Source: an uncultured bacterium | GTDB taxonomy: Bacteria; Arandabacterota; Arandabacteria; Arandabacterales; Arandabacteraceae | DNA length: 64,000 bases | Assembly (NCBI GenBank): GCA_964598025.1 | Contig: CAZRAU010000002.1 | Location: 17,854 to 81,853 of the forward strand | Direction: 5' to 3' | Shown here: positions 7,091-27,531 of the stretch, one piece after another | Position numbering within the stretch: the first letter of the stretch is position 1 | Layout of the letters: each line of letters begins with the position of its first letter | Notes under the pieces: model-generated | Told to the model about the DNA's origin: nothing | The model's database searches: none | What the model saw: only the letters and a program-made list of their open reading frames with translations | Position numbers and translations under genes: made by a program

Positions 7091-7112
7091 CCGAACAGGG
7101 GGTAACCATAGG

Positions 7113-8648: not shown

Positions 8649-8675
8649 AAGCAGGTCGCCCATCCGGTCGGCCAT

Positions 8676-14400: not shown

Positions 14401-14869
14401 GGGAACGGGGATCGGTGTAATACTGGCGGATGAGACCATCCAGGTTGAATTCGACAAGGCGGATAAGGCCCGCCGCTACGCCGAGCGAATCGTCGACAGC
14501 GTGCGGGAACCCATGCTTGTGCTCGACTCAGGCCTGCGAGTGATTTCGGCCAGTGCCGCGTTCTTCAGCGAGTTCGCCGCAAAGCCCCGGGAGACACTGG
14601 GCTTACAGATTCATGAGATCGGAAACGCGCTGTGGGATATACCCGAGCTGAGAGACAGGCTTGAAAAGACCCTGGCCTCAGGCCTGATTCTCAGGGACCT
14701 CGTCGTGGAGCGCGACTTGCCCGGGATCGGGAGAAGAAAGATGCTTCTCAATGGGCGTAGGCTGAAAATAGCCAAGGGTGAACCCGTAATGTTGTTGCTT
14801 ACCATCGAGAATATCTCGGAAGACGCGCCCAGCCGGGCAAACGTCACGGATACCGCGTGTGATCGGTGA
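11468..14869 (+). CDS. CheB methylesterase - CheR methyltransferase fusion protein with coiled coil and PAS domains, no kinase domain
   Basis: CheB-type VAIVGIGASAGGLEALEGFF...VVIQH. CheR-type FFREPEAFEVL...LRVWVPGCGTGEEAYSIAILI. Heptad-repeat linker. PAS-like segments to the C-terminus. Confidence 0.85.
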   Translation: MMVAEKRKRKAKPTEPDRPRGKACGHGPKAKSCSPGTPSDEPVAIVGIGASAGGLEALEGFFDHLPPKSGIAYVVIQHLAPQHKSVMDAILSKHTGMRINRITSGMKAEPDNIYLNQPDKDVTIVNGLLCLAELEEPHGIRLPIDRFLRSLAADRGEKAVCVILSGTGSDGTQGLKAIKETGGMAMVQEKEQARYEGMPASALATGLVDFELPVEDMADEIMKFASHTYVRCQQAVTAPEEDMEGSFARIFSFIRSETGHDFSGYKRKTTQRRIERRMALHGIDAVDAYVTFLREDSNEVKALYRDMLITVTSFFREPEAFEVLEKTAVHELLDTREPDTALRVWVPGCGTGEEAYSIAILIAEHLAARKRHLEVQVFATDLDDGSIEYARAGVYPASIAADVKAKRLERFFVSVDGSWRIKRRIREMLVFAVQDLIKDPPFSNLDLISCRNVLIYLDGALQKEVLSLFHYVLRPGGYLFLGSAETIGGFGDRFETVDSKHRIYRRKEAIHGEVKPHGVPPFFERRGRYPLTGEPSSRSASDIRGLAHRAIIDKYTPPCVLINGRHEILYFHGDTDKYLASPAGEASLDILKMIRPEIRYKLSGALHSVSKGLETVVCDDLTVVHGCESVSLDLVVKPVEDLRGAPGMMLVVFEERRKPKPARRRAGRYKADHPEDSSATALQQELASTKEHLQAAIEELETSNEELRSANEELQSTNEELQSTNEELETAREELRSSNEELETVATEREHKIQTLSKAHDDLNNLLASTDIGTIFLDLELRIKFFTPPTTAIFNVIETDIGRPISDITTAAKYAGLDRDAREVLTTLTKKETEVQTTDGRWFTVKMLPYRTTDNVINGVVITFTDVTRIKRAREHLAISRVALAAFMESATDGMMLFDSEGNLIEMNSAALELFPRGIRKEDVTGESIAKVLGLIGQGDRAEDYYATLETGIPFIDGERQRHPRIAGRYFSARVFRTGTGIGVILADETIQVEFDKADKARRYAERIVDSVREPMLVLDSGLRVISASAAFFSEFAAKPRETLGLQIHEIGNALWDIPELRDRLEKTLASGLILRDLVVERDLPGIGRRKMLLNGRRLKIAKGEPVMLLLTIENISEDAPSRANVTDTACDR
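13559..13699 (+). repeat. in-frame tandem repeat, 6.7 x 21 nt, encoding EEL(Q/E)(S/T)(S/T/A)N heptads inside the CheB-CheR gene
   Basis: gaggagctggaaaccagcaat / gaagaactcagatcggccaat / gaagagctccaatcgaccaat / gaggagctccagtcgaccaat ... Confidence 0.9.
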
Positions 14870-14899: not shown

Positions 14900-15472
14900 G
14901 TGAGCCGGATGCAAAGAGAAAAGCGCAAGCCGCACAATGCTGACAAGCTCCGCAAGTTGGCCGAGGAGGAGGCCGGTCTGCCGGTAACCCGTCCGGTCGA
15001 TGAGAGGCACGGCGATCTCGAGGAGCTTCTCTATGAGCTGCGGATTCATCAAGCCGAGCTTGAAATTCAGAACGAAGAGCTCCTTAGGGCGCAGGCGGAG
15101 CTTGAAAGCGCACGGGCCAAGTATCTGGACCTGTTTGAATCGGCGCCAATCGGCTATCTGGTGCTGGATTCGTCCGGCATGATCGTCGACGTTAACCTTG
15201 CGGGCAGGGCGATGTTGGGGCTGGACAAGCAGGCCGGGCTTGGGGCGAAGTTCGTCCGGTTAGTGGCCGGTGATGATCGGGACCGGTTCTACCTGCATAG
15301 GATGAAGGTCATGACGACCGGAACGAGGGACACCTGCAGGCTCCGCCTGGTCGGAGAGGATGGTGCGGAGTTCGCGGCCCGGCTGGAGACTGTGCCGATT
15401 CTCGATGAGGATGGTTCCTGCACGCAGCTCCGTGTGGCGCTGCTGGACCTTAGCGGGGACCGGTCGAAGTAG
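14900..15472 (+). CDS. PAS-domain protein with N-terminal coiled coil
   Basis: ELRIHQAELEIQNEELLRAQAELE followed by a PAS core FESAPIGYLVLDSSGMIVDVNLAGRAMLGL. Confidence 0.7.
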   Translation: MSRMQREKRKPHNADKLRKLAEEEAGLPVTRPVDERHGDLEELLYELRIHQAELEIQNEELLRAQAELESARAKYLDLFESAPIGYLVLDSSGMIVDVNLAGRAMLGLDKQAGLGAKFVRLVAGDDRDRFYLHRMKVMTTGTRDTCRLRLVGEDGAEFAARLETVPILDEDGSCTQLRVALLDLSGDRSK

Positions 15473-15606
15473 CATCGCCACACCCGTGGCGACGAAAGCC
15501 TTAGAGCGGCGTCATTCATCGCAACGCCACGGTAGGCAGCCAATTTCTCTTCCCACAGCCGGCATATCCATTCAAGTGTTGAGGTGCTTCGTCCGATGTA
15601 ACTAGT

Positions 15607-15616
15607 GGAGGTCACT
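15607..15616 (+). repeat. GGAGGTCACC motif copy (9/10, GGAGGTCACt) abutting ATG 15617
   Basis: tGGAGGTCACTATGagg. Confidence 0.6.
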
Positions 15617-18600
15617 ATGAGGAATGAGCATAAGCTCATTTGGTATCCCATATCGGCCGGTCTGCTGATAGTTATTTCGCACGCCCTGATCCGACTGGGC
15701 TTCCACTTCGCCGCAGGAGCATTCTTCCGGGCTGTTATTACAGGTCTTGAGGTCGGCGCGGGCCTGCTGTTTATCGGTGTGGCGCTTGCCGTCATCATTC
15801 GCCGGCATCGTGCTGCTCGGGACCTCGTCGAACGCGGGTCCGGGGATGAGTTGGCTTGGCTATCGCAGGTCTTCGACATGACTACGGAGAGCGTATTCAT
15901 CACCAACCTCGACCGGGTGATCATCGACGTCAACCGGGCCGCGCTGGAAGCAAGCGGGCGGAGTGGCAAGTCGGAGCTGGTCGGAAGAGATGTTCTTGAT
16001 ATCCTCGTGCCGGAGGACCGGGAGCCGGCTAAGGGCGCGTTCGAGAAGGTGGTGGAAGACGGCCATTTGACGGAACGCGGCTTCAGGGTCCTGAGGCCGG
16101 ACGGGGAACGCGTTGAGGTCGAAGCGAGCGTGTCCCTGATCAGAGACCCACAGGGCTATGCGGGGGGATTCGTAGGCATTGCGCGGGATCTGCACCTGCT
16201 CAGAGAGCGAGAAAGCCAGTTGTTGGACTCGGAGCGCCGCTTCAGAACCCTGTTTGATAGCGCCACGGACGGGCTGTTGGTGGCAGACACCGATACCAAG
16301 ATGCTGATCATGGCCAACCGGAGAATCTGTGAGATGCTGGGTTACACCCAGGCCGAGCTGCTGGCCCTGGGCGTCGAAGACATACATCCGGCGAAAGACC
16401 TGCCGCGGGTGTTCCAAGTGTTCGGCGATCAGGTCGCAGGTCGGCGTTCTTTCGCGGCGGAACTGCCCCTCAAGCGAAAAGACGGCAGTGTCATTCATGC
16501 CGACGTCAACTCCTCGATGATGACGCTGGACGGCAGTCCGCGCCTGCTCGGTATCTTCAGGGACGCAACCGAACGGATGGCAGCCGATGAGGTGCTCCGC
16601 GGGCGAACTCACGAGCTAGCCGAGAGAGTCAAGGAACTCGACTGTATGAACATGGCCTCGCGCCTCATGTCCGCACAGGAGAAGTCCACGGAAGAGATTC
16701 TCGCCGAATTGGTCCGGCTTGTGCCTGCGGCGTTGCAATACCCGGATAAGGCCTGCGGCATGGTCTCGGTAGACGGGGAGAATTACAGCACGCCCGGCTT
16801 TGTGGAAACCGGCAATGCAATATCGGCCATCATACGTGTGTCAAGGATGGCCAAGGGAAGATTGCTGGTTTGTTACGCCGGCACGTTTGACTCTGGCGAA
16901 GGCGATGGCGGCGCGTTCCTGAAAGAGGAGCAGCAGCTCATTGAAACGCTGGCCCTTGAAATAGGGAAGTTCCTGGAGCGAAGGGCGGTGAAAGCGGCCC
17001 TGGTGGCGAGTGAGGAGAAATACCGGCTGCTCGTCGACAACCAGACCGATCTTGTGGTCAAAGTCGATACGGAGGGCAGGTTCCTGTTCGCAAGCCGATC
17101 CTACTGCGAGATGTTCGGCAAGACCGAGGACGAGCTTTTGGGGCGGAAATTCATGCCTTTGGTACACGAAGATGATAGGGACGCCACAGTCAGGGAGATG
17201 GAACGCCTTTATAAGGCGCCGTTCACCTGCTATGCAGAACAGCGTTCGATGACTAAGGATGGATGGCGGTGGCTGGCATGGGCGTACAAGGCGATAGTCG
17301 GTGAAGACGGCAAGATCGAGGCGGTAGTGGGTGTGGGCCGGGACGTGAGCGGGCGCAAGGCCGCGGAACAGGCACTTTATCGCTCCGAGCACGAACTCAA
17401 AGTCAGAAACGAGATTGCCGACATCTTCCTCACGGTCCCTGATGATAAAATGTATGAGCGGGTTCTAGGGGCGGTTCTCAAGGCTGCCGGGAGCAGACGT
17501 GGTTGCTTCGCTGTCATGGACGAATCCAGGAGGCTGATCTGTGCTCCGGGAGTGATCGATGCCAGGGACATCTTCGTACGCACGCAATGCAGCAACGTCC
17601 TCACCGAGGACCAGTGGCTGGAGGCATGGGGAGACCTGTTCAGAGACGGCAAAGCCGTCGTCCTCGACGGTCCCCTGGATCTGTCCGGATCTCTATTGAA
17701 TGCTCAGAGGGGCATGGCCGCTCCGCTTGTCCATCAAAAGGCACCTGTCGGACTTCTCCTGGTTGCCGACAAGCCCAGCGACTACACCGAAGACGATCGG
17801 ACGTTGCTTGAGACGATCGGCAAGAAAATCGCGCCCATTCTCGCGGCCCGGCTCGAACGGGATACGGAGGAGCGAGGGCGCCTTGCAACGGAAGCGGAAA
17901 GAGAGCAACTACAATCCCAGCTCGTACAATCCCAGAAGATAGAAGCCATAGGCATCCTGGCCGGGGGTGTTGCCCATGACTTTAACAATATTCTCTCCTC
18001 GGTACAGGGGCATTGCGAGCTGGCGATGCTGAAGGCAGGTGAAGGCTCCCGGCTTGAACACGATCTCAAGCAGGTCGGGAATGCTGCGGCCCGCGGCGCT
18101 GCGCTGACACGCAAGCTGCTGCTCTTCAGCCGCAAGCACCCAATGGAAGTATCGCTTCTGGACATCAACGAAGTGGTCACGGACATGCACGAGATGCTCG
18201 ATCGCTTGATCGGCGAGGATATCACTGTTGAAAACCGGCTTGGCGATGACATCTGGACAGTCCGGGGAGACAGGACCGGTATCGAACAGGTGATAATGAA
18301 CCTGGCCGTGAACGCAAGGGACGCCATGCCGGCGGGGGGGGCAATAGAGATATCCACTGAGAACGTGGAGGTGGACTCGACGACGAGCCCGCCTTCACCC
18401 GACGGCAAACGCGGGAAGTACGTCTGCCTGAAGGTGAGCGACAACGGCACGGGAATGGACAGAAAGACCGTCGAGCGGATTTTCGAACCGTTTTACACCA
18501 CCAAGGAGATGGATAGCGGAACCGGGCTTGGGCTCTCGGTAGTCCACGGCATCGTCAAGCACCATGGAGGTTGGATTGACGTCAAGAGCACTCGCGGTCA

Positions 18601-19096
18601 GGGAAGCACCTTCAGAGTGTACCTGGCCGCGACCGGGCGCCCTGCGGAATCCCGCCCGAAGGAAAGCGGTTCGCTCGATGCATACAAAGGGAGCGGGGAA
18701 CGGGTCCTGGTCGTGGAGGACGAGGATCCTGTCCGAGAATTGGTCATCGAAGTCCTTGAAACCAACGGCTACAAAACGACACAGGCAGCCGGCGTCAAGG
18801 AAGCTCTAGCCATCTTCGAAGGCGCGGCCGGCAACTTCGACCTGGTGGTGAGCGATGTTGTCCTGGGAGACGGCACCGGGGTCGACCTGATCGCGGAGGT
18901 GCTGTCGCAGAAACCGGAAGTCAAGTGCCTGCTCAACAGCGGCTACACCGACGAGAAGTCCCAATGGCCGGAAATACGTGACCGGGGATACAATTTCCTG
19001 CACAAGCCGTTTACCGTCATCGCCTTGCTCCGCGCGGTGAAGGCGGCCCTGGCAAGCGAGGAAAAGACCCCTTCCATGACTGCCTCCGTGCCTTAA
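15617..19096 (+). CDS. large membrane hybrid sensor kinase (TM, PAS x3, conserved 115-aa sensory module, GAF, HisKA, HATPase, REC); track start 15605 (GTG)
   Basis: Hydrophobic N-terminus. H-box [21 protein letters not shown]. HATPase NARDAMP...[32 protein letters not shown]. Receiver VLVVEDEDPV...VVSDVVLGDGTG...NSGYTDEKSQWP. Confidence 0.88.
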   Translation: MRNEHKLIWYPISAGLLIVISHALIRLGFHFAAGAFFRAVITGLEVGAGLLFIGVALAVIIRRHRAARDLVERGSGDELAWLSQVFDMTTESVFITNLDRVIIDVNRAALEASGRSGKSELVGRDVLDILVPEDREPAKGAFEKVVEDGHLTERGFRVLRPDGERVEVEASVSLIRDPQGYAGGFVGIARDLHLLRERESQLLDSERRFRTLFDSATDGLLVADTDTKMLIMANRRICEMLGYTQAELLALGVEDIHPAKDLPRVFQVFGDQVAGRRSFAAELPLKRKDGSVIHADVNSSMMTLDGSPRLLGIFRDATERMAADEVLRGRTHELAERVKELDCMNMASRLMSAQEKSTEEILAELVRLVPAALQYPDKACGMVSVDGENYSTPGFVETGNAISAIIRVSRMAKGRLLVCYAGTFDSGEGDGGAFLKEEQQLIETLALEIGKFLERRAVKAALVASEEKYRLLVDNQTDLVVKVDTEGRFLFASRSYCEMFGKTEDELLGRKFMPLVHEDDRDATVREMERLYKAPFTCYAEQRSMTKDGWRWLAWAYKAIVGEDGKIEAVVGVGRDVSGRKAAEQALYRSEHELKVRNEIADIFLTVPDDKMYERVLGAVLKAAGSRRGCFAVMDESRRLICAPGVIDARDIFVRTQCSNVLTEDQWLEAWGDLFRDGKAVVLDGPLDLSGSLLNAQRGMAAPLVHQKAPVGLLLVADKPSDYTEDDRTLLETIGKKIAPILAARLERDTEERGRLATEAEREQLQSQLVQSQKIEAIGILAGGVAHDFNNILSSVQGHCELAMLKAGEGSRLEHDLKQVGNAAARGAALTRKLLLFSRKHPMEVSLLDINEVVTDMHEMLDRLIGEDITVENRLGDDIWTVRGDRTGIEQVIMNLAVNARDAMPAGGAIEISTENVEVDSTTSPPSPDGKRGKYVCLKVSDNGTGMDRKTVERIFEPFYTTKEMDSGTGLGLSVVHGIVKHHGGWIDVKSTRGQGSTFRVYLAATGRPAESRPKESGSLDAYKGSGERVLVVEDEDPVRELVIEVLETNGYKTTQAAGVKEALAIFEGAAGNFDLVVSDVVLGDGTGVDLIAEVLSQKPEVKCLLNSGYTDEKSQWPEIRDRGYNFLHKPFTVIALLRAVKAALASEEKTPSMTASVP

Positions 19097-19209
19097 CCTA
19101 CCGCCGGGAACTGCCTGTCGCAAGTCGCAAAGCACCGGGATAGAATCTTCTTGAGGAATGCGACCTCTTTCAACTAAAGACATCGGGAGGAGTGTCGATA
19201 TATACAGAT

Positions 19210-19219
19210 GGAGGTCACC
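19210..19219 (+). repeat. GGAGGTCACC motif copy followed by AGATGG, inside a 540-nt gene-free island
   Basis: gatGGAGGTCACCagATGg. Confidence 0.7.
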
Positions 19220-19631
19220 AGATGGTTCAGTCGGAAGTCTTAGGACTAAGCAGTATCCCTGGGAAGCTCAGTGGGCAGAGATCGAATTCTCACGTGCCCC
19301 TCGCTCCCGCCGATTCGTCGGGCCGGACAGTCCACCCTCTCCTCGCGGGAGCGGCCTGTTGCCCCCCGGCTATCCTGGCCTGCGAATCACTCTGTCCGTC
19401 GCCCCCGTCTCGTCAGGGAATCCGGCGCCTCTCCTTATGCACACCAGGCTCCCCGGAGACGGTACCCCCGTGGGTGTGGCAGCCGACTGGTGAAGTTGAA
19501 GACTCCCTTCTGGCGAACCTCGCCAAGGGGGTGGGGTCCCGAAGAGCACACATTCGCGGAAGCGGGCGGCGATGTCCGACCGCTCCCTATTGGGACAACG
19601 TTGGACCCCGCCCATCCCCAACCTATATGCG

Positions 19632-20555
19632 ATGGCTACACACATGAAAGTATTGATCATAGACGATAGCCCCGATGCCATGATGATCGCAAAAGCCCGG
19701 TTGGCCGGCGAAGATATCGAGATCCTGTGTGCCGACGGCGGGCGCAGCGGCCTTGCTATTGCCGAACAGGAGAAACCGGACGCGATCCTTCTGGATCTGG
19801 ACATGCCGGACATGTCGGGATTCGATGTCTGCCGGGCGCTCAAGTCCCACCTTGAGCTCAACATGATCCCTATCGTCTTCCTGTCCGGGTCAGGCAGCCC
19901 GGAGGACAAGATAAAAGGTCTCAACCTTGGGGCCGTGGACTATGTGACGAAGCCTTTTGACGCATTCGAACTCAAGGCGCGGGTCAGGGCCGTGCTGAGA
20001 ACCAAGCGTCTGCAGGATCTCCTCGTTGAGCAAGCCCGGATCGACCCGCTGACGGGGTTGCCTAACCGCCGAGCGTTCACCGAAAAGCTCGGGCAGGAGT
20101 GGGCCAGAGTGAACCGGCACCAGGTGGCGATGTCTTTAATCATGGCCGACATCGACACCTTCAAAGCTCTGAACGATACCTACGGCCACCAGGTGGGCGA
20201 CGAAGTCTTGCAGGAAGTTGCAGCCAGGATCCGGCAGTCATGCCGGGTCAATGACATGTCCGCACGGTACGGTGGCGAGGAGTTTGTTATTGTCGCCCCC
20301 GACACAGTCGCGGTGGGGGCTTTCCGGCTCGCCGAGAGGTGCCGCCGTGCTGTGGAAGGCATCCGCCTGAAGGTTGACGGCTCGACGGTGTGTCCCACGG
20401 CAAGCTTCGGTGTCGCCGACGCGGACCAGGCGGATTCACCGGAGGCGTTGATCAGGCTGGCCGATGACGCCCTTTATCGGGCGAAAGCCGCGGGTCGTAA
20501 TCGTGTGGAATGTTCCGGTCCTGTACCCCACGAGGCACATGCCGAAGCCCTATAG
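19632..20555 (+). CDS. response regulator with GGDEF diguanylate cyclase output (REC-GGDEF); track start 19572
   Basis: MKVLIIDDSPD...AILLDLDMPDMSG receiver. RYGGEEFVIV active-site motif and RxxD-like region. Confidence 0.85.
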   Translation: MATHMKVLIIDDSPDAMMIAKARLAGEDIEILCADGGRSGLAIAEQEKPDAILLDLDMPDMSGFDVCRALKSHLELNMIPIVFLSGSGSPEDKIKGLNLGAVDYVTKPFDAFELKARVRAVLRTKRLQDLLVEQARIDPLTGLPNRRAFTEKLGQEWARVNRHQVAMSLIMADIDTFKALNDTYGHQVGDEVLQEVAARIRQSCRVNDMSARYGGEEFVIVAPDTVAVGAFRLAERCRRAVEGIRLKVDGSTVCPTASFGVADADQADSPEALIRLADDALYRAKAAGRNRVECSGPVPHEAHAEAL

Positions 20556-20684
20556 GCAGTCCGCCCTCCCTGCGGGCACACCATAAGCGCATCACCACCG
20601 AGCCGTCGGTCCGGGGATCCGGCCGGACTGCATCACGCGATTTACACTTAAACCCGAATGTCACCGGTGCCGATATGAATACAT

Positions 20685-20694
20685 GGAGGTCACC
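20685..20694 (+). repeat. GGAGGTCACC motif copy abutting ATG 20695
   Basis: catGGAGGTCACCATGtta. Confidence 0.7.
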
Positions 20695-21297
20695 ATGTTA
20701 TTCAGACTGAGAATTGCCGCGTATGCGTGTATTGCGTGCGTGCTCATCGTAACACACTTTCTTGCCGCGGTGCGCCTCCACGGTGTTGGCGGCAATCTGT
20801 CGAGCGTGTTGTACGCAGCCCCGGGTATCGCGGCATTCATTCTGCTGTCCATAGTCATACACCGTGTGACACCCACCGGAGTGTCCACAGCCGGCCGCGT
20901 TGCCCAAAGGATGAAAGGGTTACACTGTCTCTACCAGGTCTCAGCGGTCATGGCGAGGGAGCAGGGATTGGTCGAGACCCTGCAGCAGGTAGTCGATCTG
21001 ATTCCGCCCGCCATGCAGTATCCGGGCAGCGCCCAAGCCAGGATAACATGCGCAGGGATGAACTTCAATACGTCAGGGTTTGTTGAGACGGAGTGGGGGA
21101 TTTCGTCTGAAATAAAGGTGGGTGGGAGACCGGTCGGCTCGCTTCAAGCCTGCTATGCAGCGGAACGCCCGGAGACCGAGCGCGGCCCCTTCCTTGAGTA
21201 TGAAGAACTGCTTATCAAGGCTCTTGCCGCTGAGGCAGGAGCATTCATCGAACAATATCAGGCTGCAGAGTCGCCGAGACTGCGACAGCGGGTGTAA
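20695..21297 (+). CDS. small membrane protein: 2 predicted TM helices + conserved 115-aa sensory module (no output domain); track start 20683
   Basis: Hydrophobic stretches IAAYACIACVLIV and GIAAFILLSIVI. Module LHCLYQVSAVM...AMQYP...TSGFVETEWGIS...FLEYEELLIKALAAEAGAFIEQ shared with the HKs at 15617 and 24628. Confidence 0.7.
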   Translation: MLFRLRIAAYACIACVLIVTHFLAAVRLHGVGGNLSSVLYAAPGIAAFILLSIVIHRVTPTGVSTAGRVAQRMKGLHCLYQVSAVMAREQGLVETLQQVVDLIPPAMQYPGSAQARITCAGMNFNTSGFVETEWGISSEIKVGGRPVGSLQACYAAERPETERGPFLEYEELLIKALAAEAGAFIEQYQAAESPRLRQRV

Positions 21298-21298
21298 C

Positions 21299-23212
21299 AT
21301 GCGAGACGAATACAAGTTCATCATAATCGGTGGAATTGCCGGCGCTGCCATTTACTTCACTCGAAGCGTCGCCAGTCCCCTGCTTTTTCCGGATCAGTCG
21401 GCCTGGGAGTGGATCGGCAACGAACTCCCGATCTATGCGATCGTTACGGTGTTCGCAGTGGCTGCATTGCGCATTCTCAGGGGCCACAGGGCGGTTGTTC
21501 GAACCACGAAACAGCTTCAACATGAGTCCGATATCCGTGACCGGATCAGCAGGACATTCCTGTTGGCCCCGGAAGAGAACGTGTACTCGGACGTGCTGGA
21601 TCACATAATCAAGTTCACCGGCAGCAAGCACGGCGTCTTCGGCTATCTGGATGAGCGCGGGCGCCTGGTATGTCCGTCCCTCACCGACCGCCAATGGGAT
21701 TTGCTGCAATCGCAGGATACAGGCATCGTCTTCAAGCGGCATACCTGGACGGGCCTATGGGGACGTGCGCTTACCGAACGAAGGCTCGTATGGTCGAACA
21801 GTAGCATAACCACACCAGGGGGGCCCGGGGCAGTACACCGGGCGGTAGGCGTTCCGCTAATGCATGAGCGCAAGGTCATCGGACTCCTGATGGTCGGGGA
21901 GAAACCGACGGACTACTCGCTTGCGGACCGGGTGTTCATTCAACATATTGCAGACCATATCGGGCCCATCCTGAACCGGAAACTCGAGGCATTCACGCCG
22001 GACTCGGAGGGTGGGGCCGGCTCGGACAGGCAGCAAGCACAGATCCGGATTCTCCAGCAGCAGCGTCTGGACGCTACATCCGCCGCGACGAGTGCCGTCG
22101 CCACCCAGTTCAGCCGGTGTGTATCCGGCACAGGGACCAAAATAGCCTCAGCGGTCAAGGGAGACGACCGGCGCCTGTTGCTCGGGGACCTCAGGCGGGT
22201 CTATGAGATCGGGCTCAGGTCGGTCAACCTGACACGGCAATTGCTGCTTCTTAATCGAAAGCACTTCATCAGGCCAGTTACCCTGGACATAAGCGTTGTA
22301 ATGCATGAAGTGCTGAAGATGATGGGCAATCTGCTAGGTGAAGATGTCGAGGTCACCGCCGATCTGGAGGCGGACCTCTGGTCTGTTCAAGCAGACCGAG
22401 CCGCGATAGAGCAGGTAATAACGGAACTGGTCATGAATGCCCTCGCTGCGATGCCGGCGGGAGGACATCTCCGGATTGAAACCCAAAACGCCGCCATCGG
22501 GGAAGGGGAATACGAGCTGACCGAAGAAGCCCGTCCCGGCAATTTCGTGTGCATATCGGTGACGGATGACGGGCACGGAATGGACAGGACCAAGCTCAAG
22601 AACGTATTCGAGCCGTTTACCGGTGGGGAAGAGGAAGAGGCGGGACCGGGCGTGGGCCTCTCGGTGGCCCGGAGCATAATCAGACAGCATGAAGGTTGGA
22701 TCAACGCATACAGTGAGCCGGGGCGAGGCTCGACGTTCAAGATGTACTTGCCCGGATTGGCGATTGCGCGCCGGGAGACCCATGAAGGGCCGGCGTCGAA
22801 TGAGGCCGTCAGGGGCCACGGAGAGAGAATCCTCCTGGTCGAAGACGAGGACGAAATCTGCGAATTGGTCGCACTCCTGCTTGCGGAGAACGGATACGCG
22901 GTGACCAGTGCCGCGCATGCCAATGAGGCCATCAGGATCTTCAGAAGCGAGAATGGGACATTCGACTTGTTATTCAGCGACATCGCACTACCCGACGAGG
23001 ACGGTATCTCCCTCGCAAACAGGCTGGTGCGAATCAAGCCCGATCTCCCGGTCTTGCTTACCAGCGGCTACATGGACGCCGAAGGCCAGTGGCGTATCAA
23101 GTGCGACAAGGGATACGGTTTCGTCAGCAAGCCCTTCTCGACCGCAGTCATGCTGAAGGAGGTCTCCCAGGCTCTCACCCAGGGTAGTGCCGTGGACAAG
23201 GTCACAGCGTAG
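21299..23212 (+). CDS. hybrid histidine-kinase-like protein (2TM-GAF-DHp-HATPase-REC) whose H-box histidine appears replaced (AVATQFSR instead of VAHDFNN)
   Basis: ATG 21299 one nt after the TAA of the upstream ORF. GAF similar to the 15617 protein. DHp alignment anchored on LTRQLLLLNRKH. Intact N/G boxes ([46 protein letters not shown]). Receiver with Asp (LLFSDIALPDEDG). Confidence 0.8.
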   Translation: MRDEYKFIIIGGIAGAAIYFTRSVASPLLFPDQSAWEWIGNELPIYAIVTVFAVAALRILRGHRAVVRTTKQLQHESDIRDRISRTFLLAPEENVYSDVLDHIIKFTGSKHGVFGYLDERGRLVCPSLTDRQWDLLQSQDTGIVFKRHTWTGLWGRALTERRLVWSNSSITTPGGPGAVHRAVGVPLMHERKVIGLLMVGEKPTDYSLADRVFIQHIADHIGPILNRKLEAFTPDSEGGAGSDRQQAQIRILQQQRLDATSAATSAVATQFSRCVSGTGTKIASAVKGDDRRLLLGDLRRVYEIGLRSVNLTRQLLLLNRKHFIRPVTLDISVVMHEVLKMMGNLLGEDVEVTADLEADLWSVQADRAAIEQVITELVMNALAAMPAGGHLRIETQNAAIGEGEYELTEEARPGNFVCISVTDDGHGMDRTKLKNVFEPFTGGEEEEAGPGVGLSVARSIIRQHEGWINAYSEPGRGSTFKMYLPGLAIARRETHEGPASNEAVRGHGERILLVEDEDEICELVALLLAENGYAVTSAAHANEAIRIFRSENGTFDLLFSDIALPDEDGISLANRLVRIKPDLPVLLTSGYMDAEGQWRIKCDKGYGFVSKPFSTAVMLKEVSQALTQGSAVDKVTA

Positions 23213-23408
23213 CGTCGAGACTTCTGTCGCGGGCGGGCCGGCTCGCGTCATCCGCGAACCTCGGTCGCGAGGTGACGGAGATGCCGGTGCCGTGGCAGAG
23301 GGTTTGTGAATAATCAGGGCTAGGTGGGACGGCGGAGGCTCCGGGTATCGGAGCGCCCCAGCGATGGAATCTGCGGGGCTGGCCGCGCTCGGCCAATGAC
23401 CGCGGTTT

Positions 23409-23418
23409 GGAGGTCACC
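23409..23418 (+). repeat. GGAGGTCACC motif copy in gene-free convergent intergenic island
   Basis: gtttGGAGGTCACCtaagg. Confidence 0.7.
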
Positions 23419-23474
23419 TAAGGAAGGTGCCGCGGCCAGAGGAGTGCGGCCAGCCCCATTGCCGCTCTCACACT

Positions 23475-23484
23475 GGAGGTCACC
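23475..23484 (+). repeat. GGAGGTCACC motif copy followed by AGATG (same extended form as copy at 19210)
   Basis: actGGAGGTCACCagATGtgg. Confidence 0.7.
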
Positions 23485-23885
23485 AGATGTGGGGTGAGCG
23501 GCATTGCAGATCGTATCGCTTCGGCGGGCGCGCCCGTGCAGCCGGCCATGTGGCCGGAACGGGGCCGTCGTCTGAAAACCGAACACGGGGATTGGAGTCC
23601 TCGTCGTCCCGGCTCCATCAGATCTTTTCGGCATGCCCAAAGCCTCCGCGTTTTCGTCTATCAAAAAAGGCACAATCGATGTCGTCTCACGTTTACGACG
23701 ACTCAATTGCGCCTTCGACTTGCAGGTCTTATAACCTGCCCGGCAAGGCGGCCCGCGCCCAAGTCGCGAGCCTTTTTCACTATCCAACTATCTACTTCGA
23801 CACATGGCCTGGAAACTTTAGCTGTTTTTGTGGCATCTTTTCTTTTTCACTCTTGGGCGCCATGCACGCTCGTCGGACGGCTGTC

Positions 23886-24635
23886 TCAATCGGTCGCGTC
23901 GACCAGGTCCTCAATCTTCTTGCGTAGGTCGCTGAGCTCCTTGGATCTGAACGACCGCTTGGACTTCTCGAGCACGTCGATCGTCTCCTTCATGGTGTCG
24001 ACGAGTTTCCTGGTTCTCGGGCAATCCAACAGACGGCAGATCTCGCCCTTGCCGGCTGAATCGGCAATAGCGGCCATGGCCGTCCTCAGGTCGGCCAAGC
24101 CGCCGGCGATGTGGCTGAGAGTCAACGCCACATACGTATCGGTGGGGACCGCGGGCAGGCCGGCCGGCTTTTCGGAAAGAACGCTCTTTATCTCGTCGAG
24201 GTCGCGGTCCCAGTCCAGGAGGCGCTGTTGAGTCTTACATACGGCCTTGAAAACCCTGGAACGTGAAAGGGCGGATTCGATCGCGGTCAGTAAGGCCGGA
24301 AAATCTATCGGTTTCAACACATAGGCAACGACGGGCAGGCTTACCGAATCTATGGCGGTTCTCATCGAGGGGTAGCCGGTTACCAGGATTACCGGGAGGC
24401 CATCGTCCAGGTCCTTGACTTTCCGAATAAGCTCCAGGTCGGGGTTCCCGGGCATCTTTATATCCGCGATAAGGAGATCGTACTTGTCCAGCCGCAGTGC
24501 CTCTGCCGCGGCCCTCCCATCCGGGACACAACAGCACTCATATCCCTCATCACGGAGAAGGTCACCGGTGGATTTCAGAAACGACATCTCATCGTCGGCA
24601 AGCAGCAGTTTCCCCTTAGAGGTGGTATCAGGCAT
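23886..24635 (-). CDS. response regulator: receiver + uncharacterised ~120-aa helical C-terminal domain
   Basis: KLLLADDEMSF...LLIADIKMPGNPD...VILVTGY...VAYVLKP. Overlaps the end of the upstream HK by 8 nt (operon). Confidence 0.75.
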   Translation of the reverse strand: MPDTTSKGKLLLADDEMSFLKSTGDLLRDEGYECCCVPDGRAAAEALRLDKYDLLIADIKMPGNPDLELIRKVKDLDDGLPVILVTGYPSMRTAIDSVSLPVVAYVLKPIDFPALLTAIESALSRSRVFKAVCKTQQRLLDWDRDLDEIKSVLSEKPAGLPAVPTDTYVALTLSHIAGGLADLRTAMAAIADSAGKGEICRLLDCPRTRKLVDTMKETIDVLEKSKRSFRSKELSDLRKKIEDLVDATD

Positions 24636-27471
24636 TCTGATCCTCCGATCTCCACGGCAATCTTACGATGAAGGTTGTCCCTTTGCCAACAGCAGTCTCG
24701 AAAGCGATGGTCCCTCCCATGGCCTCGATCATGTTCTTCGATACCGATAACCCCAGCCCCAGGCCGCGCAGATCGCCTTCGGACCTCGTGGTGAAAAACG
24801 GTTCGAATATCAGATCCCGGTGTTCGGGCGCGATCCCTGTACCGGCATCCTCAACTTCGATAACCACGCCGGAAGCCTCTCGATTGATGGACACCGTTAT
24901 CGTCCCGGATGTCGGGGACGCCTCAATGGCGTTGCTGAGCAGGTTGAACATCACCTGGCTGAAGTATCCGACCGGCAGCCTGACATTCACGGGCTCCTGC
25001 GGCGCGTTGCAGAGCAGCTTGATCTCCCTTGCCCTCAGACTGCTCTCGAGCAGAGTGAAGACCTCCTTAACCGAGTCGACCACCGAGATCGCGCGGCGCG
25101 GCTGCACCTCGTCGCGGTAAAGCTCGAACATCTTACGGATTATCAAGGCGATCCGGTCGATTTCGTGTCCGACCAGATCGACATACTCGAAACGCGGATG
25201 ATCCTTAGGGACGGCTCCCTTGATCAGAAGAAACGAGTTCTTGATGCCGGCAAGCGGATTGTTTATCTCATGGGCGATTCTGGCCGCCATCCTGCCGGTC
25301 GCGGCGATTCCTTCAGCGGAGGCGCGCTGCCGCTCGAGATCATGTATGCGCTGCGTTCGTTGCTCCACGAGTCTCTCCAATTCCTCGCTGTAGGTTCTAA
25401 TCTGCGCTTCCGCGAGGCGGAGCCCGCCCTCGCTGTTCTTAAGATTGGTGATGTCAACCGCCGAGACAAGCAGGTTTGTAGACATGTCCCGGGATGGGGC
25501 AACGGCAACCGAGCGGAGGCTGACATATCGCTCGCGGCCTTTGGCCGTGCGCGTGCGATACTCCGCATGGAAGCGAGCATTGCCGCCGGCGAGCGCTATG
25601 ATGGTGCCCACAAACGGCTCCAGCGCGGGGCCGCGGATACTCGAGACAACGAACTCTCGGAACTCATCCATTGTGGCACATTCATACAATCTCAGGGCCG
25701 CGTCATTCGCCCGGTCTATGCTCATCACTTGTGCGCATGCCGAGAGGTCATCCGGATGGCTTCGGAGGTGGGCTGCGCAGTCTGTAATGGCCCGTGATCG
25801 GAGATCATCGAGGTAGGCTATCACTTTCGCACAATCGATCTCGACCAGGGCGATGGGTGCTTCCTCGAACAGACGCCTGTAGGCTTCCTCGCTCTTCCTG
25901 AGTGCGCCTTCGGTTCGCTTGAGATCGGTAATATCCAGGATAACCCCCAGGAACCCCGCAAGCGACCCGTCCGGGCCGGCATACGTGGCCTTGTTGAAGA
26001 CCACGTCCCTGACGTCGCCGGCCGCCGTTTTGACCCGCCGCTCGTAGGTTTGGGTGCCTGGGTTCGCGAAGAGCTCGGCGTCCATCTTCGTACACTCGTC
26101 GGCGACCTCCTTGGGCGCTATCTCGTACCCGGTTTTGCCGATTATCTCAGCCTGCGTCAGCCCTATGAAGCGCTCGAAAGCCCGGTTACAGCCCGTGTAG
26201 CGCCCTTCCGGGCCCTTGTAGAACACAGGATTGGGGATTGTGTCCATCAGTATGCGTAGCAGCTCAAGCTGGCGCTTGAGTTCGACCTCGGCCTGTTTGC
26301 GCTGCGTGACGTCGCGGGCGACATTCATGATCTCGACAACCTTCCCATCCCTCAAGATCGGGATCGCGTTTATCTCGAAGCTGCGAACCGTGGCTTCGTC
26401 GAGATGCACTGCAACGTCGAAGCCCCGCACCTCCTCGCCGGCCCGCAGCCGCCCTGCAACCGTGGAGATGGCATCGGGGTCGGTTGCGGTGAAGAGTGAC
26501 AGGACATTGACATTCCTCGCTTCCTCCAGTGTGAGCCCGAGGAGGTCGAGGCTGGCCTTGTTTGCATAAAGGATACGGCCGTCGGCATCGGTGAGGTACG
26601 TGTGATCAGGATTAGCCGACAGGAAGAGATTCAGTCTCCGTTCGTGCTCGGCGATCTCCATCCGCCCCCATCTTCGCTCGATGAAACCGGCGATGTCTCC
26701 TGCCAATATGTCGATGAGCCGCTTCTCCTCCTCAAGGAAGGGGGCTTCGGTGGGCCGGGCCGGATCCTCAAGGTAGTAAACCTCTATGGCCCCGACGAGA
26801 GCATCCTTTACTCTTATGTCCGATGACATCCTGCATGGGCTTTCCTCGAAGCCGGAGGTTCTCACCTCGGTACCGGACAATACGATTCGCACGCATGTGT
26901 CGCCGGGGCGGCTCATGGCCGACGGCAGTAGATTCGCTATCTCCTGGAGCACCCGGGGGACTTCGGCTTCCGGGTCTGCCATCGCTTTCGACGTCGCGTG
27001 AAGGCAACTGAGTTCTCGCACCCGCACATGGAGTTTTCCCCGCTTGTCTTCCAGTTGCGCCATCGCAGTCTTCTGCTCGGTAATGTCACGGAAGATTTCC
27101 ACTCTGTGGCGGGTCCCATCAGGATTCCGGACCAGCGTATCAATGATGTCGTATATCCGCTTGTTCTTCGGGCAGAACCATTCCCTTCGGGACTTCTCTC
27201 CGCGGTAAACCGCCTCACTCGGACAGCCCTCGCAGGTTGTCGGGCCTTGTTCGAAGTACTCATAGCACTTTCTGCCCTCCCAGGGGCCGTATAGGTCTTC
27301 GATCAAGTGGTTGACATAGAGGACGTCACGGGTCTGGTTGGTGATCAACAAGCCGTCTTCGAGGGCATCAAACACCCTGCGGAGATTATCAAGATCGTCC
27401 ATCAACCGCGCGCGGGCCCCTTCCGGCTCCCGTACCGACCGGTTCTTGGTCTTCGCTCGATCTCCCATCAT
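24628..27471 (-). CDS. multi-PAS sensor histidine kinase carrying the conserved 115-aa sensory module; ATG 27471 preferred (track GTG 27516)
   Basis: H-box AHEINNPLAGIKNSFLL. HATPase NLLSNAIEASPTSG...DAGTGIAPEH...GLGLGLSVSKNMIEAMGGTIAFETAVGKGTTF. Module LSCLHATSKAM...SAMSRP...TSGFEESPC...FLEEEKRLIDILAGDIAGFIERR. GGGAGG SD before ATG 27471. Confidence 0.85.
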   Translation of the reverse strand: MMGDRAKTKNRSVREPEGARARLMDDLDNLRRVFDALEDGLLITNQTRDVLYVNHLIEDLYGPWEGRKCYEYFEQGPTTCEGCPSEAVYRGEKSRREWFCPKNKRIYDIIDTLVRNPDGTRHRVEIFRDITEQKTAMAQLEDKRGKLHVRVRELSCLHATSKAMADPEAEVPRVLQEIANLLPSAMSRPGDTCVRIVLSGTEVRTSGFEESPCRMSSDIRVKDALVGAIEVYYLEDPARPTEAPFLEEEKRLIDILAGDIAGFIERRWGRMEIAEHERRLNLFLSANPDHTYLTDADGRILYANKASLDLLGLTLEEARNVNVLSLFTATDPDAISTVAGRLRAGEEVRGFDVAVHLDEATVRSFEINAIPILRDGKVVEIMNVARDVTQRKQAEVELKRQLELLRILMDTIPNPVFYKGPEGRYTGCNRAFERFIGLTQAEIIGKTGYEIAPKEVADECTKMDAELFANPGTQTYERRVKTAAGDVRDVVFNKATYAGPDGSLAGFLGVILDITDLKRTEGALRKSEEAYRRLFEEAPIALVEIDCAKVIAYLDDLRSRAITDCAAHLRSHPDDLSACAQVMSIDRANDAALRLYECATMDEFREFVVSSIRGPALEPFVGTIIALAGGNARFHAEYRTRTAKGRERYVSLRSVAVAPSRDMSTNLLVSAVDITNLKNSEGGLRLAEAQIRTYSEELERLVEQRTQRIHDLERQRASAEGIAATGRMAARIAHEINNPLAGIKNSFLLIKGAVPKDHPRFEYVDLVGHEIDRIALIIRKMFELYRDEVQPRRAISVVDSVKEVFTLLESSLRAREIKLLCNAPQEPVNVRLPVGYFSQVMFNLLSNAIEASPTSGTITVSINREASGVVIEVEDAGTGIAPEHRDLIFEPFFTTRSEGDLRGLGLGLSVSKNMIEAMGGTIAFETAVGKGTTFIVRLPWRSEDQNA

Positions 27472-27531
27472 GGGCCTCCCGGAGTGGGTAATAGCGATGC
27501 ACCGGACACCCGGCACCGCTATGGTATACCA

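What the first reader, a model, noticed from the sequence alone, without database searches (positions are those of the whole stretch)
15617..27471. Recurrent uncharacterised ~115-aa sensory module shared by three proteins
- Shared sequence: a module with conserved blocks L-x-C-[LM]-x(4)-[SA], [AS]-M-[QS]-[YR]-P, T-[SP]-G-F-[VE]-E-[TS] and F-L-x-E-E-x-x-L-I-x-x-L-A, ending ...IE(Q/R)(Y/R).
- Occurrences: the HK at 15617 (ELDCMNMASRLM...FLKEEQQLIETLALEIGKFLERR), the HK at 24628-27471 (ELSCLHATSKAM...FLEEEKRLIDILAGDIAGFIERR), and as the only soluble domain of the 20695 protein.
- Assignment: I cannot assign it to a named family from the sequence alone. Its reuse as a cassette suggests a ligand-binding input domain specific to this lineage.
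Basis: seen in the sequence. Interest (0 to 1): 0.5.

Follow-up and report, generated by a model that had tools for sequence, protein, structure and literature searches.

The report
Widespread unannotated compact GAF-like sensor module
Three signalling proteins in this window share a real ~120-residue domain that standard domain libraries miss; it is a stripped-down GAF-type fold found in thousands of bacterial and archaeal regulators, so it is a candidate new sensor family, not a feature of this lineage.

Summary
Three ORFs (A 15605-19096 +, B 20683-21297 +, C 24628-27516 -) each carry one copy of a 121-124-aa module. The copies share 34-40% identity (BLASTP E 1e-16 to 1e-21), and the window holds no fourth copy.

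- **Not annotated:** Pfam-A and NCBIfam give no hit, even at E<=10.
- **Not lineage-specific:** A profile of the three copies finds 9,969 cluster representatives (7,589 at E<=1e-10). At least 598 genome loci across many bacterial phyla and several archaeal groups carry it.
- **Not a recent cassette:** Each window copy has closer relatives elsewhere than its two neighbours.
- **Likely an input domain:** It is the only non-output domain in minimal soluble kinases (module, 25-29-aa linker, HisKA) and in module-LuxR and module-AraC regulators.
- **Signal unknown:** Leads are a co-varying Cys pair and conserved synteny of minimal module-kinases with gdh, nrpR and nuoEF-like genes.

Verdict: a new, unannotated variant of the GAF superfamily, of moderate interest.

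The parts
16613..16984 (+). Module copy A (aa 337-460 of protein A), lying between PAS domains. It has both Cys11 and Cys48 of the family numbering.
20896..21258 (+). Module copy B (aa 72-192 of protein B), the only soluble domain of B. It has Cys11 but Gln at position 48.
26671..27033 (-). Module copy C (aa 162-282 of protein C), between an N-terminal Cys-rich PAS-like region and two or three PAS domains. It has both Cys11 and Cys48.
   Evidence: Scores 123.8 bits.
15605..19096 (+). Gene A: hybrid histidine kinase with two hydrophobic (TM) segments, PAS-PAS-module-PAS-GAF_2-HisKA-HATPase_c-REC.
   Evidence: ORF. Pfam. Hydrophobic segments. The 1159-aa form is in the NCBI-derived collection.
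20683..21297 (+). Gene B: small membrane protein consisting of two TM helices plus the module, with no output domain. The start in the public collection is ATG 20695 (200 aa).
   Evidence: The orthologue P0090 has the same layout (66% identity over the module; the C-terminal tail is conserved).
24628..27516 (-). Gene C: soluble histidine kinase, PAS-like-module-PAS-PAS-(unassigned region)-HisKA-HATPase_c.
   Evidence: No hydrophobic segments.
21299..23212 (+). Gene D: two TM segments-GAF_2-degenerate DHp (no phospho-acceptor His)-HATPase_c-REC. Its ATG lies 1 nt after B's stop codon, making it B's likely partner. It is paralogous to the C-terminal half of A.
   Evidence: 1-nt spacer. 35% identity over 616 aa to A, E 5e-111. 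H-box His missing in D and in its 85%-identical orthologue. No HisKA hit. The B-D pairing is conserved in three metagenome contigs.
19572..20555 (+). REC-GGDEF response regulator between A and B, conserved immediately upstream of the B-D pair in relatives.
   Evidence: Pfam. Same gene order in L085, L086 and L087.
23886..24635 (-). REC-domain protein whose ATG overlaps the stop codon of gene C by 8 nt (ATGCCTGA), making it the likely cognate regulator of C.
   Evidence: Pfam. Overlap read from the sequence.

Best explanation
The module is a member of a large, ancient family of compact GAF-fold domains that Pfam and NCBIfam do not annotate. Its family consensus is L.ER.KEL.CLY..S ... LIP..WQYPEITCARI ... 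T.NF.ET.W.Q ... G..EV.Y ... EGPFLKEER.LI. The fold keeps the GAF three-helix layer (N-terminal helix, second helix, long C-terminal helix) and two beta-hairpins. The helix/strand insert that forms the ligand pocket in canonical GAFs is replaced by a 9-residue conserved loop.

I infer that it works as a cytoplasmic input domain. I expect it to dimerise through its N- and C-terminal helices, as GAF domains do. A signal perceived at the conserved loop and aromatic face would then be passed through the C-terminal helix into the next element: a PAS domain in A and C, or the DHp helix after a fixed 25-29-residue linker in minimal kinases.

The window holds three old paralogues. Two are embedded in multi-PAS kinases (A and C). 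One (B) is a membrane-anchored stand-alone version, translationally coupled to D, a His-less kinase-like GAF-CA-REC protein. B probably modulates D by direct interaction.

Shown: homology, family size, taxonomic spread, fold, domain architectures and operon structure. Inferred: dimerisation, the sensing role, and the B-D interaction. The signal is unknown.
For: **Homology and discreteness**
- Pairwise E-values of 1e-16 to 1e-21.
- Sharp boundaries and tandem arrays with a period of about 122-134 aa.

**Fold**
- Two independent AF2 models, from 3-sequence and 43-sequence alignments, agree (module pLDDT 89-97).
- Foldseek gives query-normalised TM-scores of 0.56-0.67, with alignments 150-180 columns long, so the targets carry an insertion the module lacks.
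- The top covarying column pairs (alpha1-alpha3, beta3-alpha3, beta1-beta4) fit the model.

**Family size and spread**
- 9,969 representatives at E<=1e-3 and 7,589 at E<=1e-10.
- At least 598 genome loci in Bacteria and Archaea.

**Input-domain role**
- Partners include HisKA, HisKA_3, HisKA_2, PAS, REC, HAMP, MCP signalling, Ser/Thr kinase, HD-GYP, GGDEF, sigma54 AAA+, LuxR, AraC and STAS.
- 13 of 80 genome ORFs have room for nothing but the module and a kinase core.
- Ten of these 13 were scanned and none has any other confident domain. HisKA or HisKA_3 was detected in eight, each starting 25-29 residues after the module.
- Module x2 or x3-LuxR and module-AraC one-component regulators exist.
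- Polar and aromatic loop residues are very strongly conserved (G82 0.96, F100 0.98, E104 0.97, Y88 0.94, R5 0.92, Q42 0.86, W68 0.85).

**B-D unit**
- 1-nt spacer between the genes.
- Same REC-GGDEF / B / D order in three metagenome contigs.
Against: - No ligand, cofactor or dimer has been shown, and the structural statements rest on predictions.
- The element that forms the pocket in canonical GAFs is absent, so a classical small-molecule site is not evident.
- The window copies are divergent members: 109-126 bits against a family median of 166. They retain only 16-18 of the 24 most conserved positions, having lost W41 in all three, W68 in A and C, Q70 in all three, and R50 in A. They may therefore have lost whatever the consensus members sense and act mainly as transmitters.
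- In A and C the module is flanked by PAS domains that could do the sensing.
Confidence: 0.6

Rival explanations
1. The module is a passive transmitter or dimerisation spacer. It is a reduced GAF that has lost its pocket and binds nothing. It only provides a dimeric helical scaffold between sensing domains (PAS, TM) and outputs, as has been proposed for the reduced GAF-like domain of NarQ.
For: - The module lacks the GAF pocket-forming insert.
- In A and C it sits in line between PAS domains.
- It occurs in tandem arrays of up to 5 copies.
- The NarQ GAF-like domain is described as reduced to three helices, unrecognised by Pfam and InterPro, and probably only a transmitter (PMC8199190).
- The window copies have lost several hallmark residues.
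Against: - The module is the sole non-output domain in minimal soluble kinases and in LuxR- and AraC-type one-component regulators. Such proteins would have no input at all under this reading.
- Loop residues that would be irrelevant to a spacer are conserved from Archaea to Bacteria. In contrast, the Nar GAF-like region is reported as less conserved than the rest of the protein.
- Stand-alone coiled-coil-plus-module proteins of about 192 aa are abundant.
Confidence: 0.25
2. The module is a thiol-based redox or metal/cofactor sensor. Cys11 on helix 1 and Cys48 on strand 1 would form a reversible disulfide, or ligate a metal or Fe-S centre (possibly across the dimer). Oxidation state would then control the helical output.
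For: - C11 is present in 75% and C48 in 54% of 256 instances. They co-occur: both 128, C11 only 64, C48 only 9, neither 55 (odds ratio 12).
- The pair ranks 45th of 6,441 column pairs by MI-APC.
- Copies A and C retain both cysteines.
- Host lineages in the genome sample are mostly ones known as anaerobes (plus general knowledge).
- Some minimal module-kinases neighbour NuoE/NuoF-like Fe-S/FMN proteins and a small Cys-rich ORF.
Against: - 21% of instances have neither Cys and 25% have only C11, so the pair is not a family-defining feature.
- The co-occurrence statistic is not corrected for phylogeny.
- The pair is not among the very top covarying pairs.
- Copy B lacks C48.
Confidence: 0.2
3. 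The module is a divergent, reduced PAS domain and not a GAF domain.
For: - PAS and GAF share the same basic sheet.
- The module is surrounded by PAS domains in A and C.
Against: - No PAS profile hits the module at E<=10. The only weak sequence echoes are to Pfam GAF and GAF_3.
- The order of elements (two helices before strand 1, a long C-terminal helix beginning with a PF-x-x-EE motif) is the GAF order.
Confidence: 0.05
4. One reading: a lineage-specific ligand-binding cassette recently re-used in three proteins of this organism.
For: Three copies lie within 12 kb in one signalling island. They share some local peculiarities, such as T-[SP]-G-F-[VE]-E-[TS] where the family has T-x-N-F-x-E-T.
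Against: - The family has thousands of members across Bacteria and Archaea.
- Each copy has closer relatives in other organisms than in the window.
- B has a 66%-identical orthologue in the same operon context in three metagenome contigs.
Confidence: 0.02

Closest known systems
Canonical GAF domains (Pfam GAF PF01590, GAF_2 PF13185, GAF_3 PF13492), for example Aquifex Nlh1/Nlh2 GAF (4g3k, 4g3v), PtsP GAF (3trc), NifA GAF (8jrc), P. syringae HK GAF (3cit)
   Same: - The C-terminal motif (beta-hairpin with Gly, then F-x-x-EE-x-x-L) gives weak Pfam GAF echoes.
- The same kinds of partner domains occur.
   Different: - No profile hit above threshold.
- hhalign against the window's own GAF_2 domains aligns only the last helix, at 3.6% probability.
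- The module is about 120 aa against about 150-170 aa, with four predicted strands and three helices. The middle insert that forms the ligand pocket is replaced by a conserved 9-residue loop.
- It has its own strongly conserved motifs (CLY, WQYPE, T.NF.ET.W.Q, EGPFLKEER).
Reduced 'GAF-like' domain of NarQ/NarX nitrate-sensor kinases
   Same: - It is described as a reduced GAF with only three helices that Pfam and InterPro do not recognise, sitting on the helical path into the DHp domain (PMC8199190).
- Minimal family members here likewise place the module 25-29 residues before HisKA or HisKA_3.
   Different: - There is no detectable sequence relationship: the family HMM scores E. coli NarQ at 1.8 bits overall (best domain 0.0) and NarX below zero.
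- The Nar domain always follows a periplasmic sensor, TM region and HAMP, and is poorly conserved.
- This module is often the only candidate sensor and is strongly conserved.
- In the window it lies between PAS domains or directly after TM helices, not before DHp.
GnfL/GnfM of Geobacter sulfurreducens (kinase plus sigma54 activator controlling gdhA and nif genes)
   Same: It is a precedent for a soluble kinase and response-regulator pair that controls glutamate dehydrogenase expression (PMC2995071). This parallels the synteny of module-kinase, regulator and gdh/nrpR seen in many related loci.
   Different: GnfL is reported to carry a PAS-like sensor within about 100 N-terminal residues. Its sequence could not be fetched and tested here, so this is an analogy only. 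It does not bear directly on the window's three copies.

Membership tests
GAF superfamily (fold level) | [quoted passage not shown] | tested here: met
   [not shown]
Pfam GAF / GAF_2 / GAF_3 (sequence families) | A match to the family HMM at or above the gathering threshold. | tested here: not met
   The three window modules give no hit at E<=10. Only 5 of 37 diverse members give PF01590 hits, best E 0.013. NCBIfam gives none. hhalign against the window's GAF_2 domains gives 3.6% probability.
Canonical GAF domain architecture | A five- or six-stranded sheet plus helices on the distal face that enclose the ligand pocket. | tested here: not met
   AF2 models show four strands and three helices, with strands 2 and 3 joined by a 9-residue loop. 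Foldseek alignments need about 30-60 extra columns in the targets.
Canonical GAF domain function | Binding of a small ligand or cofactor (cNMP, bilin, haem, 2-oxoglutarate and others). | not testable with these tools
PAS domain | A match to PAS profiles, and helices C-F inserted between strands B and G. | tested here: not met
   [not shown]
NarX/NarQ GAF-like domain | Sequence homology to the S-helix-to-DHp region of NarX or NarQ. | tested here: not met
   The family HMM scores E. coli NarQ at 1.8 bits overall (best domain 0.0) and NarX at -0.4 bits.
The unannotated 'CLY / WQYPE / EGPFLKEER' module family defined here | A full-length match to a family HMM built without the window sequences. 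| tested here: met
   A scores 108.7, B 126.1 and C 123.8 bits (E 1e-35 to 1e-40), full length, against a family 5th percentile of 96 and a median of 166 bits. These are divergent but clear members.
The unannotated 'CLY / WQYPE / EGPFLKEER' module family defined here | Retention of the hallmark residues (24 columns conserved at >=0.6, plus Cys48 at 0.54). | tested here: inconclusive
   A retains 16 of 24, B 18 of 24 and C 16 of 24. W41 and Q70 are lost in all three, W68 in A and C, and C48 in B.

The most novel reading that the evidence does not exclude
The family is a dedicated sensor of one conserved intracellular cue. The cue would be perceived on the conserved loop and aromatic face that replaces the canonical GAF pocket. 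Candidates are the carbon/nitrogen status metabolites 2-oxoglutarate or glutamine, or NAD(P)H/thiol redox state read through the co-varying Cys11-Cys48 pair.

Its archetype would be a previously unrecognised two-component system: a minimal module-kinase plus a response regulator of varying class. This system would control glutamate dehydrogenase, NrpR and NuoEF-like genes in anaerobic Bacteria from several phyla. The window's three copies would be diversified descendants wired into a c-di-GMP and exopolysaccharide signalling island.
Probability: 0.3. Interest if true: 0.7.

Novelty: new variant of a known kind. Interest (0 to 1): 0.45.

Why it matters
Pfam and NCBIfam leave this domain unannotated, and public sources call many stand-alone carriers 'hypothetical protein'. 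It nevertheless occurs in roughly ten thousand 50%-identity protein clusters across Bacteria and Archaea. In many kinases and one-component regulators it is the only candidate input domain.

- **Annotation:** Defining it as a family, probably a new member of the GAF clan, would close an annotation gap in signal-transduction censuses.
- **Sensing without a pocket:** It shows that a GAF core stripped of its classical pocket can still be the sole sensory element, which raises the question of how such a domain perceives a signal.
- **Testable hypotheses:** The conserved synteny with gdh, nrpR and nuoEF-like genes, and the Cys pair, give concrete hypotheses about the signal.
- **For this window:** The finding reinterprets B as an accessory sensor subunit of a His-less kinase-like protein, within a conserved REC-GGDEF / B / D unit.

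Tried and rejected
- **Word-indexed protein search with the three-copy profile.** It returned only B itself and one fragment, so it was uninformative. The exhaustive profile search replaced it.
- **Genome scan with the 37-sequence alignment.** It failed for lack of a conserved stretch and was repeated with 10 consensus-like members. The 80 loci kept are therefore biased towards the consensus subfamily, not towards the window's divergent copies.
- **AlphaFold-DB Foldseek library.** Not available.
- **PDB sequence searches with both profiles.** They gave only spurious WD40-design hits and a marginal Nlh2 GAF helix match, E 0.11.
- **hhalign against the window's own GAF_2 domains.** Only the last helix aligned. 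The GAF profile had just two sequences, so this is a weak negative.
- **NarX/NarQ homology.** Rejected.
- **GnfL as a characterised member.** Could not be tested, and the paper describes its sensor as PAS.
- **Literature searches.** Motif strings and descriptive terms found no prior description.
- **Source organism.** Not identified. A and B are in an NCBI-derived collection on an 86,827-bp contig, without names or retrievable records. The nearest named relatives of the window's asparagine synthase are Candidatus Eisenbacteria MAGs at 65% and 58% identity, which is only a weak hint.
- **B plus D as a frameshifted single gene.** Rejected. D has its own TM pair and an ATG 1 nt after B's stop, and the split is conserved in relatives.
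- **My first label 'sigma54 regulator in 53 loci'.** It was wrong as stated. The cluster is held together by REC domains and contains LuxR-, OmpR- and NtrC-type regulators.
- **The first top-150 hit list.** It over-represents multi-copy proteins because their scores add up. In the genome sample, 78 of 80 ORFs carry one copy.
Full report
**1. The observation**

The region holds three ORFs that share one module:
- A: 15605-19096 (+), 1163 aa.
- B: 20683-21297 (+), 204 aa. The public start is 20695.
- C: 24628-27516 (-), 962 aa.

The module lies at A aa 337-460 (nt 16613-16984), B aa 72-192 (nt 20896-21258) and C aa 162-282 (nt 26671-27033). The three-way alignment has 35-40% identity and 30 invariant columns. 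Pairwise BLASTP E-values are 1e-16 to 1e-21. An HMM of the three copies finds no further copy in the six-frame translation of the window; the next hit has E=1.2.

The first block should be x(3), not x(4). A has L for M in the second block. B has Y in FLEYEE. A ends LERR. The module is about 121-124 aa, not 115.

B has two hydrophobic N-terminal segments and nothing else besides the module.

**2. Standard profiles do not cover it**

Pfam-A assigns PAS, GAF_2, HisKA, HATPase_c and REC domains to A and C but leaves the module uncovered. It finds nothing credible in B. The isolated modules give no meaningful Pfam hit at E<=10 and no NCBIfam hit.

Across 37 diverse family members, only 5 give sub-threshold PF01590 (GAF) hits, best E 0.013. 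PDB sequence searches with two profiles find nothing real. hhalign against the window's own two GAF_2 domains aligns only the last helix, at 3.6% probability.

**3. Fold**

AF2 on module A with the three-sequence alignment gives pLDDT 89.3 and pTM 0.83. The elements are H2-19, H26-36, E47-53, E56-59, E69-76, E79-88 and H104-123. AF2 on full-length B with a 43-sequence alignment gives the same module topology at pLDDT 91-97, preceded by two TM helices.

Reading the element order against the usual GAF layout (my knowledge of the fold), the module keeps helix 1, helix 2, the first hairpin, the last hairpin and the C-terminal helix. It replaces the middle helix/strand/helix insert, the part that closes the ligand pocket, with a 9-residue loop. 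The top covarying column pairs (alpha1-alpha3, beta3-alpha3, beta1-beta4) are consistent with the model.

**4. Family size, spread and conservation**

An exhaustive hmmsearch with the three-copy profile against 1.84 billion cluster representatives finds 9,969 proteins at E<=1e-3, 7,589 at E<=1e-10 and 178 at E<=1e-30.

The consensus of 256 instances is L.ER.KEL.CLY..S.L...LIP..WQYPEITCARI...F.T.NF.ET.W.Q...I.V.G...G..EV.YLEE.P...EGPFLKEER.LI...A..LG...ER. The most conserved positions are G82 0.96, F100 0.98, E104 0.97, L107 0.95, Y88 0.94, E8 0.93 and R5 0.92.

The 80 loci kept include:
- Bacteria: Desulfobacterales, Syntrophus, Syntrophorhabdus, Geobacter, Dehalococcoidia, Anaerolineales, Chloroflexia, Bacteroidota, Ignavibacteriales, Spirochaetes, Clostridia, Planctomycetota, Acidobacteria, Zixibacteria, Cloacimonadota and Aminicenantes.
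- Archaea: Hadesarchaea, Bathyarchaeia, Thermoplasmatales, Hydrothermarchaeales and an Asgard MAG.

Public sources name most stand-alone members 'hypothetical protein'. A few are 'LuxR family transcriptional regulator' and one is 'GAF domain-containing protein'. I found no paper describing the module.

The window copies are genuine but divergent members. They score 109-126 bits against an HMM built without them, against a family median of 166. They keep 16-18 of 24 hallmark positions. Each has closer relatives elsewhere than its two neighbours, which rank 27th to 216th of 337. They are old paralogues, not a recently re-used cassette. The claim 'specific to this lineage' is refuted.

**5. Architectures**

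In 62 high-scoring proteins the partners are PAS (27), HATPase_c (27), HisKA (20), HisKA_3 (6), REC (10), GAF (9), GerE (5), PPDK_N (4), STAS (3), HAMP (3), MCP signalling (2) and Ser/Thr kinase (2).

In a less biased sample of 74 genome ORFs they are HATPase_c (52), HisKA (33), HisKA_3 (15), PAS (27), REC (16), GAF_2 (13), HAMP (5), HD-GYP (3), GerE (3), sigma54 AAA+ (2) and GGDEF (2).

Multi-copy arrays of up to 5 copies, with a period of about 122-134 aa, exist. Single copies dominate in genomes, at 78 of 80 ORFs.

Three architecture classes bear on function:
- **Minimal soluble kinases.** 13 of 80 genome ORFs have room only for the module and a kinase core. Ten of them were scanned and none has any other confident domain. 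HisKA or HisKA_3 was detected in eight, each starting a constant 25-29 residues after the module.
- **One-component regulators.** These consist of two or three modules plus a LuxR HTH, one module plus an AraC HTH, or two modules plus STAS.
- **Stand-alone proteins.** Many soluble proteins of about 192 aa consist of a coiled coil plus one module.

In the first two classes the module is the only candidate input. That is the main argument that the family senses something and is not merely a spacer.

**6. The window's own systems**

The three genes sit in a dense signalling island:
- KaiC-like ATPase (7056-8648)
- REC-PAS-HK (8676-10655)
- CheB-CheR-PAS fusion (11468-14869)
- PAS protein (14900-15472)
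- A
- REC-GGDEF (19572-20555)
- B
- D (21299-23212)
- REC protein (23886-24635, -)
- C
- CHASE-PAS hybrid kinase with Hpt (27822-31292)

A polysaccharide-biosynthesis cluster follows at 31-64 kb.

B's TAA stop lies 1 nt before D's ATG. D has its own TM pair, then GAF_2, a DHp-like region, HATPase_c and REC. It is paralogous to A's C-terminal half (35% identity over 616 aa, E 5e-111). D lacks the phospho-acceptor histidine: A has GVAHDFNN where D has AVATQFSR. Its 85%-identical orthologue also lacks it, with AVASQFSR, and Pfam finds no HisKA in D.

B's orthologue P0090 (66% identical over the module, with a conserved C-terminal tail) lies in three metagenome contigs in the same order: REC-GGDEF, B, a 1-nt spacer, then D. 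B is therefore a real, conserved gene coupled to D. I infer that B is an accessory membrane-anchored sensor subunit acting on D, or on A. The interaction itself is not shown.

C's stop overlaps by 8 nt the ATG of the REC protein at 23886-24635, which is probably its cognate regulator.

**7. Leads on the signal**

*Cysteine pair.* Cys11 (75%) and Cys48 (54%) co-occur strongly: both 128, C11 only 64, C48 only 9, neither 55 (odds ratio 12). The pair ranks 45th of 6,441 column pairs by MI-APC. The statistic is not corrected for phylogeny. One instance in five has neither Cys, and I could not measure the distance in the model. A and C keep both cysteines; B keeps only C11.

*Synteny.* In the 80 genome loci, minimal module-kinases are followed by a response regulator. 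After that comes glutamate dehydrogenase (17 loci), an NrpR homologue (10 loci), or a small Cys-rich ORF with NuoE-like and NuoF-like genes (6, 9 and 5 loci). This holds across Thermodesulfobacteriota, Dehalococcoidia, Cloacimonadota, Eubacteriales, Zixibacteria and Planctomycetota.

The regulator class differs between lineages: REC-LuxR, REC-OmpR or REC-sigma54. The association is therefore unlikely to be mere inherited synteny. It points to nitrogen/2-oxoglutarate status or NAD(P)H redox as candidate signals for the consensus subfamily. GnfL/GnfM of Geobacter is a functional precedent for kinase and regulator control of gdhA, but I could not test whether GnfL carries the module. None of this transfers directly to the window's divergent copies.

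**8. Comparison with what is known, and verdict**

By fold the module belongs with GAF domains. By sequence profile and by architecture (four strands, three helices, no pocket insert) it fails the tests for the curated GAF families.

The nearest conceptual relative is the reduced three-helix GAF-like domain of NarQ. That domain is likewise invisible to Pfam and InterPro and is thought to be a transmitter. There is no detectable sequence homology to it, and this module is often the sole input.

I classify the module as a new, unannotated variant within the GAF superfamily. For the window itself the finding is moderately interesting: it gives a correct annotation of three proteins and a conserved B-D unit. 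At family level it is a reasonable candidate for a new domain family, with testable hypotheses about its signal.

**Limitations**
- HHpred and InterPro member databases, and the AlphaFold-DB fold library, could not be consulted.
- The source organism is unknown. The nearest named relatives of one gene are Candidatus Eisenbacteria MAGs.

Noticed in passing
window 21299-23212 (+), gene D; also L085:2700-4613: D is a kinase-like protein (two TM segments-GAF_2-DHp-like-HATPase_c-REC) that lacks the phospho-acceptor histidine. It has AVATQFSR where paralogue A has GVAHDFNN. The 85%-identical orthologue also lacks it (AVASQFSR), so this looks like a conserved pseudo-kinase or atypical kinase.
   Followed up: partly
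window 19572-23212 (+); L085, L086, L087: The three-gene unit REC-GGDEF / B (TM-TM-module) / D, with a 1-nt B-D spacer, is conserved in three independent metagenome contigs. D's region is about 85% identical at the nucleotide level, while B's N-terminal part is much more diverged and carries an insertion of about 40 aa.
   Followed up: yes
L005, L007, L015, L017, L019, L022, L025, L029, L030, L039, L042, L046, L048, L057, L059, L070 and others (genome loci): Minimal module-kinases are followed by a response regulator of varying class (LuxR, OmpR or NtrC type). After that comes glutamate dehydrogenase and/or an NrpR homologue, across several phyla. This suggests an undescribed two-component system for nitrogen or redox control.
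   Followed up: partly
L054, L060, L061, L063, L067, L073, L077, L078: A second recurrent neighbourhood is module-kinase, regulator, a small Cys-rich ORF of about 140-175 aa with no Pfam hit, then NuoE-like [2Fe-2S] and NuoF-like FMN/NADH subunits.
   Followed up: partly
window 27172-27267 (-), protein C aa 84-115: The N-terminal PAS-like region of C, upstream of the module, contains four cysteines in the pattern C-x10-C-x2-C-x16-C (CYEYFEQGPTTCEGCPSEAV...FC). This could be a metal or Fe-S site. It was not examined.
   Followed up: no
window 24628-24635 (-): The stop codon of kinase C and the start codon of the downstream REC-domain protein (23886-24635) overlap by 8 nt (ATGCCTGA), which indicates translational coupling. 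The regulator's C-terminal ~130 aa have no Pfam domain.
   Followed up: partly
window 15605-15673 and 20683-20751 (+): The longest ORFs of A and B both begin (M/V)EVTM followed by a similar first TM segment (10 of 23 residues identical). Together with the A/D paralogy, this suggests that B+D arose as a split, reduced copy of an A-like gene.
   Followed up: partly
window 11468-14869 (+): A 1133-aa CheB methylesterase-CheR methyltransferase fusion, with a repetitive coiled-coil stretch (…EELxSxNEEL… repeats, aa ~678-768) and several PAS domains, lies just upstream of a small PAS protein and gene A.
   Followed up: no
window 7056-10655 (+): A KaiC-like double-domain ATPase lies immediately upstream of a REC-PAS-HisKA-HATPase kinase, a possible KaiC-based timing or input module at the edge of the signalling island.
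   Followed up: no
window ~31300-63600 (mostly -): A large polysaccharide-biosynthesis cluster adjoins the signalling island. It has four GT4 glycosyltransferases, a carbamoyltransferase, a Wzy_C-like membrane protein, a methyltransferase, a Wzt-type ABC ATPase, an AMP-binding enzyme and an asparagine synthase. It is a plausible output of the c-di-GMP and two-component genes next door.
   Followed up: partly
P0191, P0234 and about 100 similar proteins; L083, L084: There is a large group of soluble 'hypothetical proteins' of about 192 aa, mostly from Desulfobacterales MAGs. Each consists of an N-terminal coiled coil plus one consensus module and has no output domain. The two genomic contexts examined are not signalling loci.
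   Followed up: partly
P0003 (1279 aa), P0004 (653 aa): Two unusual architectures were seen. One is a Ser/Thr protein kinase followed by five tandem modules. The other is 4HB_MCP-HAMP followed by three tandem modules that run to the protein's C-terminus.
   Followed up: no
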